Notes under the pieces: model-generated
The model's input: only the letters and a program-made list of their open reading frames with translations
Told to the model about the DNA's origin: nothing
The model's database searches: none
Part shown: in pieces, positions 1 to 59,253 of the stretch
Numbering within the stretch: the stretch's first letter is position 1
Layout of the letters: each line of letters opens with the position of its first letter
Position numbers and translations under genes: made by a program
Assembly (NCBI GenBank): GCA_012295275.1
Contig: CM022667.1
Location: forward strand, 16,182,001-16,246,000
Source: Chrysomallon squamiferum
Lineage: Eukaryota > Animalia > Mollusca
Direction of reading: 5' to 3'
Length of the DNA: 64,000 bases

Positions 1-3000
1 TGTATGTGATGTGAAGATATTTGCACACAATGAGGGATGTAAGTACATGTTATACGTTTATATAATTAGTTTATAATGATATTCTCTCTCTCTCTCTCTC
101 TCTCTCTCTCTCTCTCTCTCTCTCTCTCTCTCTCTCTCTCTCTCTCTCTCTCTCTCTCTCTCATCTTTCTGTTTTCCTCATACATAGACACTAATCAGTG
201 AAATAATGGAAAGATAATCAAGCATGCACTCAAAATGTTAGCACAAAAAAAAAAAAAAAAAAAAAAATATTTTATAAATATATACTTTTCTTTTTTTGTC
301 AGTTTTGTTCTGAATTCATTGTGGTAATAAATAATATGTTTTAGACACCCAAAACATTTTGTTATAAACATACTTGTTTTAATTGGCTAAATATTAACGT
401 GATGTGTGTTTGTGTGTGTGTGTGTGTGTGTGTGTGTGTGTGTGTGTGTGTGTGTGTGTGTGTGTAATATATAGTTTAACTTAGAACATTCAAACTTCAA
501 AACTTTGATTTCTTGAATAGTAAGTCTGGTCCATTGAGATGTCAGTTATCTGAAAACCTCTTTTACTCAAAGTTGTTTTGCAGTGTCCCAGACTACTCAC
601 TGAATAGACATTAGCCTGTGAAAACTCAGAGTGCTGGAGCACTGGGTCACTCATTAACTGGAATGAAATACATCATACATAGTTATCTTCACTGCTTTTG
701 GTTCTTCAAATGTTTTGTCAATGTATTTTTAACTTTATCTGTTAATTGCAGCACCTGTAAACCTGGCAACAAAAGGAGTTACTAGACAGAGTTCAAGGGT
801 AAATGATAACAAAAATTCCCATAATGCAGTAGATGGGACAGTTTCCTGTTCAAGCACTGCTAATGAGCTGAATCCATCATGGAGGTTGTTTTTTGATTCA
901 AAATTATATGACATCCACAGAGTTTATGTTCACATACCAGACATAGGTATGTATATTCACAATTCTTTTATCAGATTAATATATAGACTGAAGTTTTAAT
1001 GCCACATGATCAACTATCCTTGTGCATTTTGGGGGGGATTTTTCCCATTCCAAGTATGGCTCCACATATAGTTTTAGTGAAGAAGGTGATATAAAGTGAA
1101 AGACAAATGAAACTACATTAATTTATGATTCACTGTTTGTAAAGAAAAGTAATAACAAATTATCTTTTGTCAAATATGTTTAAATGCTTGCAAAATAAAT
1201 TATTGATAAATATTTAATAATAATAATAATAATATTATGCTCATAAGAACCATACTAACAATATTTTATTGCACATATTTTTCATAAAAATAAAAATAAA
1301 AATAAAAAACCAACATTTAGCAGATATACATTGTTTTAATAACCAGGCACTTTCACACAGATCTTACTGCTACATATATGATGATAAACAAATTCGATAA
1401 ATGTAAGAAAAACCTATGTAATTGGTTTTTGTTTTGTAGCTGTTGTAAGGCTCAGTACAGTACTTGTAATCTGATTTCTGCAGCCACATAACAGGGACAG
1501 TACCCATTTTAGTTAATGTCATATTTCTGAGAATGTTTTAAGGACCATAAACAATGTAAAATAATAATAATAACAGCAGTCATATCAACAATGGCGACAA
1601 CAACAACAACAACAATAATGATAACAATAATAATAGCTATAAGAAAAAACTCAAAAAATAACAATAATAATATCAATCATTATAACAATGACAAGAACAA
1701 CAACAGCAATAACAACAACAGTAACAAAAACTAAATAACAACAAAAGTAACAACAAATCTATTTTTCAGAATTTGATACTCTAGAAGCGAACATCACAGT
1801 ACATGTACGAAGTGGAAATGATGTTTTTCTGTGTGAACATGATGGGGTTCCAACACCTCCTGTTTTTAAGGCAAACTGTCATGGTGATGTGTATGGAAAT
1901 TCAATCCGAATAATTGCACACTTCAACAAACCTGTATCATTGAAAATATGTAATGTCGTCATACATGGGAGATACCGTGGAGGTAAGTGTGTGTGTGTGT
2001 GTGTGTGTGTGTGTGTGTGTGTGTGTGTGTGTGTGTGTGTGCATGTGTGTGCATGTGTGTGCGTGTGTGTGTGCGTGTGTGTGTGTGCATGCATGTGTGT
2101 AAATATGTGCATGCATGTGTGTAAATATGTACATGTTTGTGTGTGTTTTTATACATAAAAGTTTATATTTAGTTATATGTTTTTGCGTGTGAATAAATAT
2201 GTCTTATAGGTTTATATTTTATTTATGTACTTGATGCCTAATTTTCTGTATTGTTTATGCTTACAAGTTAGATATGAACATCTATCAGATGTCTTTTAAC
2301 AGTGATTAACATAGATAGATTTGAAATAAACAACAGCTTCTCTGTTCTTGCATAAAACAGCTTAACGATTTTAAAAACAGAGACAGTTTGGAATGGAAAT
2401 GTAATATTTATTAATGTTTATTATGCTAGTATTCAGTTAAGTATTTATAATTTAAATATTTCTTAGCTGCTGGAGTCCTGACAGGAGGCTACAGCACATC
2501 TCAGACTTCAACACTTGTGCCAGACGATCAAGTATCTTATGATTCCCAGAATGCAGTGGATGGTACTGATTCCTGTTCTGGTACTGACTATGATTTGAAG
2601 TCCACATGGAAAATTTCATTTGAGAAAGTTTATGAAATTAACTCTGTCAAATTCAACCTCTCTTCTCAAGGTTTGTAAGATTTTGCTTTATCACTTAGTA
2701 GTGAGTAATGTAAAACTGCTTGCAGAGAAAAGTGAGTATGTGTAATGTTGTTACTCTGTTTATATGTGTTTTTGAGGTTAAAATAATGTACTTAATGTCT
2801 GTGGATTATATGTATGTTCAAAGTTTGTCTGTCTATCTGTCTCTTCCTTCTTTCACACACTCCACACACACACACACACACACACAATACACACACAATA
2901 CACACAAACTCAATACACACACACATCCATGCATACAAGCACAAAAAGACACACACACATATTGTCTCTCATAGTCTTTCTATGTGTATGTATACATGTA

Positions 3001-58000: not shown

Positions 58001-59253
58001 AAGCATGTACTGATATATACACACATAACCAAATAGATGTCAGATAGGTATCTATACAGAGAGAGAGAGAGAGAGAGAGAGAGAGAGAGAGAGAGAGAGA
58101 GAGAGAGAGAGAGAGAGAGAGAGAGAGAGAGAGAGAGAGAGAGAGAGAGAGAGAGAGAGAGAGAGAGAGAGAGAGAGAGAGAGAGAGAGAGAGAGAGAGA
58201 GAGAGAGAGAGAGAGAGAGAGAGAGATGGGATGGTTATACAGATGAATGGATGGAAAAGAAATATACTTATGAGCATTGTTAACGGATTACTTTTTTCTA
58301 AATTAGTTAAGCCAGTTACTGCCACAAGAAGTTCGACATCATCCGAAACACCCAAAACAACCACATCATCCACAGCAATTGAGACAGCTACAACAAGGGC
58401 TTCAACTACGACAACCACAAAAGGTACAACTACGACAACCACAAAAGTTACAAATACGACAACAGAAAGAGCTATAGGTACGACCACGACAAGTGCTACA
58501 ACTACGAACATTACAAGTGCCACAACTACGACCAAAATGCCCACAACTACGACCAAAATGCCCACAACAACAATAGCAGCAACGACTGTTACAACTAGAA
58601 CTACAACGAAAATGCCGGCAGCAACTATTAATGAATCTGTAATGACTGCAGATATATTAAAATCAACTGCTACACCACGGCCAGATAGTTCAACAACTAC
58701 ATCAACTCCAACAACCTCTTCTTCGACCAGGAAGACTATATCACCAACTTGCACAACACCATCTACAATTACAACAACTTCGATGCCAGCAACAACATAT
58801 TACACAACTTATGCACCAGCCCTACCGACGACCGTGAATAAAACAACAAGTACTCTTTCATCAAGAATTTCAACAACTGCACCTACAACAACAACAACCA
58901 CAATATCAAGAGAGGTCACCACCATTCAAGCAAATTTTAGAAATAAATCTTCACAGACCGCATGCTCAGAATATACTGTCTGTAGGTGTAAACGCAAACA
59001 CACGACGAAAGAAGATACGGGACTTCAAAGATCTATGGAAGAGCTGAAAAAAAATCTCACCGTCAATAAAACAGTTATTTCCAGATACCAGCGTCAGTTC
59101 TACAGCGTCCCTGACTACAGGCCGTCTGCGGTGACGTTGGGGACATCGTCAATACTCATTATGTGCACGCTTGTATTTCTTATCATATTCGCTGATATTT
59201 CTAAACTAATACTGTGGACATACAGCGAAATATTAACTGCAAGAAATCCTTAG
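46004..59253 (+). CDS. G4: complete paralog, about 1002 aa, with an internally deleted first FTP domain
   Basis: Exons: 46004-46067 (signal MERRNRIYLQLAFVLFFLFHT), 47350-47532, 48975-49148, 49855-49971 (short), 53697-53909, 54462-54647, 54845-55024, 55339-55569, 56020-56265, 56840-57091, 57534-57749, 58307-59253. Total 3009 nt, open frame, phase-1 introns. Confidence 0.88.
47785..48586 (+). mobile_element. Tigger/pogo-derived MITE family A, copy 3, with a remnant transposase N-terminus
   Basis: TA-CAGTGGTACCTC...AGTCAAGGTACCACTG-TA. A frameshifted MDPKKVSAK..KKQMISIELKQEITEKHERGVHVVD..RKYERSTST..TILK at about 48062-48235 resembles the CENP-B/psq-type HTH of pogo/Tigger transposases. Confidence 0.87.
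50180..52279 (+). mobile_element. Degenerate Ty3/Gypsy LTR retrotransposon remnant (Gmr1-like domain order)
   Basis: Gag zinc knuckle CGYCKMTNHVISNC (about 50386-50430); decayed protease (RYTGAWQSLI..GVDILLGNDL); integrase C-terminal GPY-type segment (about 51381-51505); RT-proximal PIRQPAYRVNP..EIQYML (about 51720-51815); LTR-like end ..cccGTAACA at 52279. It sits between (TA)n tracts and has many stops and deletions. The left boundary is approximate. Confidence 0.8.
52509..53250. mobile_element. Tc1/mariner-superfamily MITE (family B) with TA target duplication
   Basis: The left end TA-CAGTGGGGTACCCAATAACGAA matches the reverse complement of the right end TTCGTTATCGGGTAGCCCATTG-TA. Subterminal repeats ATAACGAAC occur inside, plus a short internal tandem repeat (ctccttccacctcttcacagttattat). 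Confidence 0.8.
58058..58226. repeat. (AG)n microsatellite, representative of the many (CT)n/(CA)n/(ATT)n/(TA)n/(ATTT)n tracts in the window
   Basis: Pure AG run of about 170 bp. Confidence 0.95.

What the first reader, a model, noticed from the sequence alone, without database searches (positions are those of the whole stretch)
1..59253. Tandem array of four diversified Sushi/F-type-lectin/Kringle/mucin membrane receptors: candidate undescribed mollusc innate-immune or recognition receptor family
Seen: four same-strand paralogs share one exon plan (SP-CCP-CCP-FTP-CCP-FTP-KR-KR-X-mucin-TM). Established: CCP/Sushi, F-type lectin and kringle modules are complement, pattern-recognition and protein-interaction domains, and a mucin stalk plus TM projects a head away from the cell surface. 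I do not recognise this combination from any named protein. Inference: tandem expansion, variable putative ligand-binding domains, a conserved scaffold and a nested antimicrobial peptide gene are the signature of a diversifying immune or allorecognition locus. Gamete recognition is an alternative, since oyster sperm bindin uses diversified F-type lectin repeats.
Basis: partly seen in the sequence, partly recalled or inferred. Interest (0 to 1): 0.9.

Follow-up and report, generated by a model that had tools for sequence, protein, structure and literature searches.

The report
Snail kringle-mucin surface protein gene array
Four related genes lie head to tail, with an antimicrobial-peptide gene inside one predicted intron; they are predicted to make stalked cell-surface proteins of a design known here only from unnamed relatives in a hydrothermal-vent snail, which likely bind partners on gut-gland and mantle surfaces, possibly including symbiotic bacteria, but they lack the fucose-binding residues of true F-type lectins.

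Summary
The array is real. Four plus-strand paralogues join through 40 of 40 in-frame GT-AG internal exons into open frames: Sushi, F-type-lectin-fold, two kringles, an unknown 70-residue domain X, mucin stalk, one membrane helix, 12-20-residue tail. A macin gene lies antisense in an intron of gene C. Corrections: gene A has an extra lectin-fold domain, D's first one is truncated, C's signal exon is out of frame, and the only named relatives are in the gastropod Gigantopelta aegis, also clustered. The immune reading is only partly supported: the fucose-binding triad is missing in 9 of 9 domains, domain X of the 'scaffold' is as divergent as the lectin folds, and the duplications are old. In favour: published tables show kringle genes beside a macin in two vent snails, some raised in the symbiont-housing oesophageal gland (linked by annotation only), and one run carries six differences in a lectin-fold exon, all amino-acid-changing. 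No paper found. Best reading: non-catalytic epithelial surface recognition/adhesion proteins. Interest 0.5.

The parts
752..9624 (+). Gene A (5' end beyond the window). Exons: FTP-like0 752-946 + 1770-1982; FTP-like1 2467-2670 + 3123-3335; CCP-like 3958-4140; FTP-like2 4741-4923 + 5333-5539; kringle 6374-6622; kringle 7452-7697; X 8386-8598; mucin-TM 8951-9624
13042..23823 (+). Gene B, complete model, 1245 aa. Exons: signal 13042-13108; CCP 13713-13895; CCP 14590-14766; FTP-like1 14975-15157 + 16432-16656; CCP-like 17345-17527; FTP-like2 17656-17838 + 18871-19110; kringles 19458-19685, 20129-20380; X 21833-22057; mucin-TM 22232-23823
   Evidence: signal exon from a hydrophobicity/splice scan only
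26653..42878 (+). Gene C. Exons: probable signal 26653-26717 (out of frame in the window); CCP 27285-27467; CCP 33632-33808; FTP-like1 34284-34499 + 34884-35117; CCP-like 35639-35821; FTP-like2 36296-36478 + 37789-38013; kringles 38344-38580, 38948-39199; X 40715-40921; mucin-TM 42118-42878
30424..30726 (-). Macin-family antimicrobial peptide gene (101 codons with signal-like N-terminus), antisense in the intron between gene C's first two CCP exons
   Evidence: Pfam PF14865 E 9.6e-11, 42.5 bits against cut-off 27; position
46004..59253 (+). Gene D, 1002 aa. Exons: signal 46004-46067; CCP 47350-47532; CCP 48975-49148; shortened FTP-like1 49855-49971 + 53697-53909; CCP-like 54462-54647; FTP-like2 54845-55024 + 55339-55569; kringles 56020-56265, 56840-57091; X 57534-57749; mucin-TM 58307-59253
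57534..57749 (+). Domain X (one exon in each gene; four invariant Cys, one Trp): confident small beta-rich model, no clear structural relative
   Evidence: (pLDDT 85.5)
58951..59253 (+). Membrane-proximal module (C-x-C, basic helix, conserved pre-TM motif, TM helix, short tail), present in all four genes; unnamed, resembles mollusc-wide clusters without a Pfam family

Best explanation
The window holds four tandem paralogues whose predicted products are likely non-catalytic, single-pass surface proteins of snail epithelia (probably the oesophageal gland and mantle), in which a predicted glycosylated stalk would hold out a head of Sushi, lectin-fold and kringle modules that likely binds protein or non-fucose glycan partners on neighbouring cells, mucus or bacteria. 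Shown: exon structure, open frames, domain content, loss of the fucose triad, 12-20-residue tails with no catalytic domain, a clustered set of relatives in Gigantopelta aegis. Inferred: that the exons are spliced as modelled; that the family arose by shuffling of phase-1 exons onto a mollusc-wide mucin/membrane module and duplicated long ago; that members act by binding and tethering, signalling (if at all) through a partner or by uptake; that tissue expression of the published vent-snail kringle genes applies to this family. The ligand is not known; the macin is a real neighbour but a functional link is not shown.
For: Open joined frames, 40 of 40 symmetric exons. An independent RefSeq model in G. 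aegis (XP_041375587) has the same FTP-CCP-FTP-KR-KR-X-mucin-TM order, and XP_041375588, 589 and 617 on a contig of the same length carry KR-X-mucin-TM. The membrane module also carries a C-type lectin head in G. aegis (P0003) and resembles three Mollusca clusters without Pfam family (scores 0.91-0.94). Tails 12-20 aa. In PMC7895826 supplements, three G. aegis genes pair with five C. squamiferum genes numbered in the same scaffold segment as a macin; they are annotated kringle/plasminogen or factor-C-like; 2 of the 3 are in the oesophageal-gland list (log2FC 6.5 and 4.6; list holds 1782 of 21,438 genes; binomial p 0.02). In PMC7142155 supplements 1 of those 5 C. squamiferum genes is raised in oesophageal gland (2.4-fold), 1 in mantle (2.4-fold), and 2 have Thr- or Asn/Thr-rich repeats. 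Furrowed, the nearest known design, acts in adhesion through a CCP.
Against: No RNA evidence for the window's own exons. The link from the published gene ids to this family rests on annotation, repeats and the neighbouring macin, not on sequence. The third G. aegis gene and 3 of the 5 C. squamiferum genes were not found in the differential lists searched. G. aegis has 35 rows under the same kringle-type KOG label, so kringle genes are common. Signal exons come from a simple scan; C's is out of frame and D's first lectin-fold domain is half deleted, so some members may be decaying.
Confidence: 0.45

Rival explanations
1. A polymorphic immune or symbiont/allo-recognition cluster under ongoing diversifying or balancing selection, like the single-pass clusters tied to parasite resistance in Biomphalaria.
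For: Tandem single-pass cluster with a nested macin. Run X7 differs from the window at 6 listed sites in gene B's FTP1b exon, all 6 amino-acid-changing (19 of that contig's 20 differences were listed); chance 0.003 at dN/dS 0.2. X7 differs at 50 of 1213 bases in three 5' pieces but 1 of 413 around exon X (p 9e-6; pieces chosen after seeing them, three middle pieces with 13 of 621 left out). Such clusters exist in snails (PMC13712769).
Against: 6 of 6 has chance 0.18 under neutrality, and the exon rate (0.036) is below the flanking intron (0.05), so relaxed constraint explains it; exon against exon p 0.12. X1 and X3 show 0-6 differences per piece of 197-1098 bases. Fucose triad absent in 9 of 9. 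X and the membrane part are about as divergent as the head. Synonymous sites between paralogues near saturation, pN below pS in every whole-exon pair. No signalling domain.
Confidence: 0.2
2. General adhesion or glycocalyx proteins with no special relation to microbes (Furrowed-like or membrane-mucin-like), expressed in gland and mantle because these are secretory epithelia.
For: Mucin stalk, short tail, degenerate lectin and kringle sites; Furrowed binds homophilically through a CCP and Drosophila CG9095 also lacks triad residues; one probable relative is mantle-high rather than gland-high.
Against: Multi-copy array with 30-40% identity in most modules and changing domain number (gene A, D) is unlike single-copy developmental adhesion genes (own knowledge); strong gland enrichment of two G. 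aegis genes.
Confidence: 0.25
3. Gamete-recognition proteins, like oyster bindin or an egg-coat receptor.
For: F-type folds are used in bindin (PMC5712786); fast-changing extracellular modules.
Against: Bindin-type fucose motif absent; probable relatives are listed in oesophageal-gland and mantle sets; architecture with kringles, stalk and TM is unlike bindin (own knowledge). Gonad lists were not specifically examined.
Confidence: 0.05
4. Partly decayed copies or a prediction artefact.
For: C's first exon is out of frame; D's first lectin-fold exon is shortened.
Against: No stop in about 4,100 codons over 44 joined exons, pN below pS, same order in G. aegis.
Confidence: 0.05

Closest known systems
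Drosophila Furrowed / CG9095 (CTL-X, selectin-like) and sea urchin SpCRL
   Same: F-type lectin domain joined to CCP modules; Furrowed and CG9095 are single-pass; SpCRL has an S/T/P region; CG9095 has lost triad residues (PMC5712786 passages)
   Different: No C-type lectin or FIMAC domain found here; two kringles, domain X and a long mucin stalk instead; multi-copy array
F-type lectins (eel AAA, striped bass FBP32, oyster bindin; the fucolectin expansion reported in G. aegis)
   Same: Fold and N-terminal sequence pattern; calcium motif kept in 4 of 9 domains
   Different: Fucose triad absent in 9 of 9; membrane-anchored mosaic
Gigantopelta aegis XP_041375587/588/589/617 (automatic names 'uncharacterized', 'hepatocyte growth factor-like', 'threonine-rich GPI-anchored glycoprotein-like')
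   Same: Same family: module by module 30-61% identical, same order, clustered
   Different: Uncharacterised; the models seen are shorter at the N-terminus and show no first two CCPs
Biomphalaria PTC1/GRC, PTC2 and LG5R single-pass gene clusters
   Same: Tandem single-pass receptor-like genes in a snail (PMC13712769 passages)
   Different: Different domains (that paper has no mention of kringle, mucin or macin); extreme polymorphism and a resistance link are not shown here
Plasminogen/HGF, ROR/MuSK, Kremen
   Same: Kringle modules
   Different: No protease-like, kinase, WSC or CUB domain found; the acidic pair of lysine-binding kringles (motif recalled) is absent in 8 of 8

Membership tests
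F-type lectin | F-type jellyroll fold | tested here: met
   Profiles find FBP32 first, E 1.4e-8 and 3.2e-4; Foldseek top hit 3cqo E 9.4e-6, on a low-confidence model (pLDDT 38) of the G. aegis relative
F-type lectin | Fucose motif HX24RXDX4(R/K) | tested here: not met
   Motif from PMC5712786. His position holds S, G, L, E or similar and no RxD follows the strand in 9 of 9; one loose regex match in D is out of register, inside the second exon
F-type lectin | Calcium motif h2DGx | tested here: inconclusive
   Present in 4 of 9 domains
F-type lectin | Binds fucose | not testable with these tools
   needs a binding assay
Kringle domain | Pfam PF00051 above cut-off | tested here: met
   8 of 8
Plasminogen/HGF family | C-terminal serine-protease(-like) domain, secreted | tested here: not met
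   Kringles are followed by X, mucin and TM in 4 of 4; G. aegis relative has only Kringle hits
ROR/MuSK receptor kinases | Cytoplasmic kinase domain | tested here: not met
   12-20 residues after the helix, then stop
Sushi/CCP domain (first two) | Four-Cys CCP pattern, similarity to complement CCPs | tested here: met
Sushi/CCP domain (third) | Same | tested here: inconclusive
   0 of 4 Pfam hits; best CCP in PDB E 0.13; profile match to first two, probability 62%
Furrowed/CTL-X | C-type lectin domain | tested here: not met
   No Lectin_C hit in 44 exon frames scanned nor in the full-length relative; gene A's 5' end is outside the window
Polymorphic snail single-pass clusters (PTC/GRC type) | Tandem single-pass genes | tested here: met
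Polymorphic snail single-pass clusters (PTC/GRC type) | Highly divergent alleles | tested here: inconclusive
   1 of 3 runs divergent over part of gene B
Polymorphic snail single-pass clusters (PTC/GRC type) | Genotype linked to infection outcome | not testable with these tools
   needs experiments
Macin | Pfam PF14865 above cut-off | tested here: met
   42.5 bits against 27

The most novel reading that the evidence does not exclude
An old, undescribed receptor cluster of chemosymbiotic vent snails, built from repurposed F-type folds that no longer bind fucose, kringles and a new small domain, displayed in the symbiont-housing oesophageal gland, carrying divergent haplotypes in its head exons and kept beside an antimicrobial macin: a candidate for how these snails recognise and police horizontally acquired symbionts.
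Probability: 0.2. Interest if true: 0.85.

Novelty: new variant of a known kind. Interest (0 to 1): 0.5.

Why it matters
How vent snails pick specific bacterial symbionts from the environment is open (PMC9381778 passages report horizontal or mixed transmission with species-level specificity), and published candidate lists cover standard pattern-recognition families only (PMC7895826 passages). These genes carry misleading automatic names (plasminogen, HGF, factor C) and so would be missed. The array gives concrete, testable candidates, a small domain without a clear structural relative, and a pointer to an unnamed mollusc-wide mucin/membrane module that takes different heads. If the proteins are only general epithelial adhesins, the value is a new mosaic family in a narrow lineage.

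Tried and rejected
No whole genome is held, so copies beyond the window could not be counted. No RNA holder listed. X7 shows no cover over several gene B exons at 90% likeness; not used, as a hole proves nothing. Whether C's first exon is really frameshifted or an assembly slip in a T-run, and whether D's shortened exon is in the reads, stay open. Word-indexed protein searches were shallow: 3 hits, only the query, 2 hits; the full HMMER search with X gave 9 hits, of which 3 (P0006, P0008, P0010) are unrelated repeat proteins, so absence outside this snail lineage is weak evidence. Metagenome scan gave 2 loci matching only 15 residues of X and no other exon: chance. Domain X: no Foldseek match at E<=0.001, best VIA Z 5.8, rmsd 3.0 over 67 residues to Cwp8, no usable Atlas hit; this does not show a new fold; my guess of a shortened C-type lectin fold found no support in these lists. 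The tree of kringle2+X+membrane part (7 rows, P0015 not yet found and not included) has no supported fork, so no one-to-one orthology is claimed. A first signal-exon guess at 11584-11787 was dropped for a better one at 13042. A large fragment alignment misplaced many rows and was not used. Literature searches with no paper: kringle+sushi+F-type lectin+mollusc (23), G. aegis+kringle (29), F-type lectin+kringle+domain architecture (38), macin+gastropod+theromacin+intron (69), kringle+gastropod+transmembrane+tandem+mucin (72); the library lacks most subscription papers. Earlier findings of the scan: none.
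Full report
Observation. The window is 32% G+C and rich in microsatellites, so it is animal DNA with introns. Four blocks of cysteine-rich open stretches recur on the plus strand. I placed splice sites by hand-guided scans. All 40 of 40 internal exons end in AG/GT and have lengths divisible by three (two ends corrected). Joined by coordinates they read without an internal stop: A 925 aa (open at the window's 5' edge), B 1245, C 951 without its first exon, D 1002. 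Chance would not give this. The common order in B, C and D is signal, CCP, CCP, lectin-fold (two exons), CCP-like, lectin-fold (two exons), kringle, kringle, X, and one last exon with mucin stalk, membrane-proximal module, helix and tail. Departures: A has three lectin-fold domains; D's first lectin-fold exon is 117 bp and lacks the N-terminal half; the likely signal exon of C (26653-26717) is 65 bp and out of frame as the window reads, either a slip in a T-run or a broken allele, unresolved. A macin gene (Pfam E 9.6e-11) lies antisense at 30424-30726 between C's first two CCP exons.

Domains. Kringles pass the Pfam cut-off in 8 of 8, but lack the acidic pair of lysine-binding kringles in 8 of 8 (motif recalled, the plasminogen alignment is). 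The first two CCPs are real (4 of 5 scanned hit Sushi at E<=0.1, 1 above cut-off; profile to complement receptor 2 E 4.8e-14); the third is divergent. The lectin-fold domains match fish fucolectin by profile (E 1.4e-8, 3.2e-4) and by a low-confidence model of a relative (pLDDT 38; top hit 3cqo, E 9.4e-6). But the defining fucose motif HX24RXDX4(R/K) (PMC5712786, passages) is absent in register in 9 of 9; the calcium motif survives in 4 of 9. They have the fold and are not F-type lectins by the family's own motif. Domain X folds confidently (pLDDT 85.5) with no clear structural relative. Tails are 12-20 residues; C and D have a YxxI-type stretch at the end, A and B do not.

Relatives. A full HMMER search with X gave 9 proteins: 3 named G. 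aegis proteins, 3 unnamed single-exon pieces from ENA contigs and 3 unrelated repeat proteins. XP_041375587 has lectin-fold, CCP-like, lectin-fold, two kringles, X, mucin, TM in the same order at 30-60% identity per exon; XP_041375588, 589 and 617 are KR-X-mucin-TM; all four lie on a contig of 59,883,994 bases and three have consecutive accessions. So the array exists in a peltospirid vent snail, and the window is probably from a related gastropod (inference; species not determined). The membrane-proximal module also ends a C-type lectin-mucin protein in G. aegis and resembles Mollusca clusters of 54-102 members without a Pfam family (scores 0.91-0.94, a lead, not an alignment).

Evolution. 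Mean paralogue identity: CCP1 67%, CCP2 40, lectin-fold exons 33-36, CCP3 47, kringle 1 47, kringle 2 58.5, X 32, membrane part 41. So the split into variable head and conserved scaffold does not hold. Synonymous differences are 0.42-0.88 per site, near saturation, and exceed non-synonymous ones in every whole-exon pair; window genes are as near to G. aegis proteins as to each other (D's X 51% to XP_041375587 against 27-38% to paralogues) and the tree is a star without support. The duplications are old. The last 32 codons of kringle 2 in B, C, D (0.27-0.29) and the first 33 of CCP1 (0.25-0.45) have lower synonymous divergence (segments picked after a blastn look), a hint of patchy gene conversion. 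Within the species, three DNA runs were laid on 16300-22100: X1 and X3 differ little (0-6 letters per piece; X1 may be the source); X7 differs at 50 of 1213 bases in three 5' pieces and 1 of 413 around X (three middle pieces, 13 of 621, left out of the contrast). Its 6 listed differences in exon FTP1b all change the amino acid, which fits relaxed or positive selection (p 0.18 if neutral, 0.003 at dN/dS 0.2) and does not prove the latter.

Expression, indirect. No RNA holder was listed. In the supplements of PMC7895826 (rows found by search), G. aegis contig ctg346 has six genes with a kringle-type label and one macin. The orthologue table pairs that macin with C. squamiferum Scaf140_3.12, and three G. 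aegis genes (ctg346-7.6-1, ctg5577-0.0-1, ctg2135-0.2-1; labelled kringle, factor C-like, plasminogen) with five genes Scaf140_3.16-3.25: kringle/CCP genes beside a macin, as in the window. Two of the three are in the list of genes high in the symbiont-housing oesophageal gland (log2FC 6.5, FDR 1e-6; 4.6, FDR 0.046), a list of 1782 of 21,438 genes (p 0.02). In the supplements of PMC7142155, 3.25 is 2.4-fold up in the gland, 3.20 2.4-fold up in mantle, 3.16 is listed as a novel gene with a Thr-rich repeat; 3.18 and 3.24 were not found. No sequence ties these ids to the window's family, and nesting of the macin is not shown in either species; in G. aegis its number suggests a different segment of the contig (numbering convention recalled).

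Mechanism. Most likely these are non-catalytic surface proteins of secretory epithelia: an O-glycosylated stalk lifts a head of CCP, lectin-fold and kringle modules that binds proteins or non-fucose glycans; the short tail implies tethering, uptake or signalling through a partner (inferred; 0.45). Rivals: general adhesion without microbes (0.25), polymorphic immune or symbiont-recognition locus (0.2), gametes (0.05), decay or artefact (0.05).

Comparison and novelty. Nearest designs are Furrowed/CG9095 and SpCRL (F-type domain with CCPs; Furrowed adheres through a CCP, PMC9954269 passages) and, as a genomic pattern, Biomphalaria single-pass clusters (PMC13712769 passages). It fails membership of F-type lectins, plasminogen/HGF, ROR and CTL-X. 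Five searches found no paper on this combination, in a library without most subscription papers. Papers seen: PMC7895826 and PMC11871041 passages and supplement rows; PMC7142155 start of abstract and supplement rows; PMC5712786, PMC13712769, PMC9954269, PMC9381778 passages; none read whole. Supplements not seen (a scanned file and the cut part of a table in PMC11871041; preprint supplements) may list these genes.

Noticed in passing
window:50051-51890 (+), intron of gene D: Broken frames with a CCHC-like knuckle and protease/RT-like stretches, probably a decayed LTR retrotransposon (motifs recalled; Pfam gives only a zinc-finger hit at E 0.017). It lies next to D's shortened lectin-fold exon.
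   Followed up: partly
window:20762-21731 and 16882-17269; inverted copy 47771-48278; pieces at 37150-37706: High-copy dispersed repeats in introns (depth 10^4-10^5; 79% identical inverted copy).
   Followed up: partly
window:20285-20665, 39104-39519, 57001-57103: The 3' end of kringle 2 and the start of the next intron are unusually alike among genes B, C, D (up to 90% over 103 bp; low synonymous divergence), with partial duplicates of the exon end at about 20462 and 39705; possible gene conversion.
   Followed up: partly
window:26653-26717: Probable signal exon of gene C is one base out of frame at a T-run; assembly slip or broken allele not settled.
   Followed up: partly
window:58951-59253 and equivalents: Unnamed membrane-proximal module without a Pfam family, resembling mollusc-wide clusters and carrying other heads such as a C-type lectin; may deserve its own family definition.
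   Followed up: partly
window:12119-12281: A 160-bp imperfect palindrome upstream of gene B (84% self-complementary).
   Followed up: no
window:30424-30726 (-): A two-domain macin of C. squamiferum is reported in the sclerite proteome, highest in scale tissue and mantle (PMC11871041 supplement rows); not tied to this single-domain gene.
   Followed up: no
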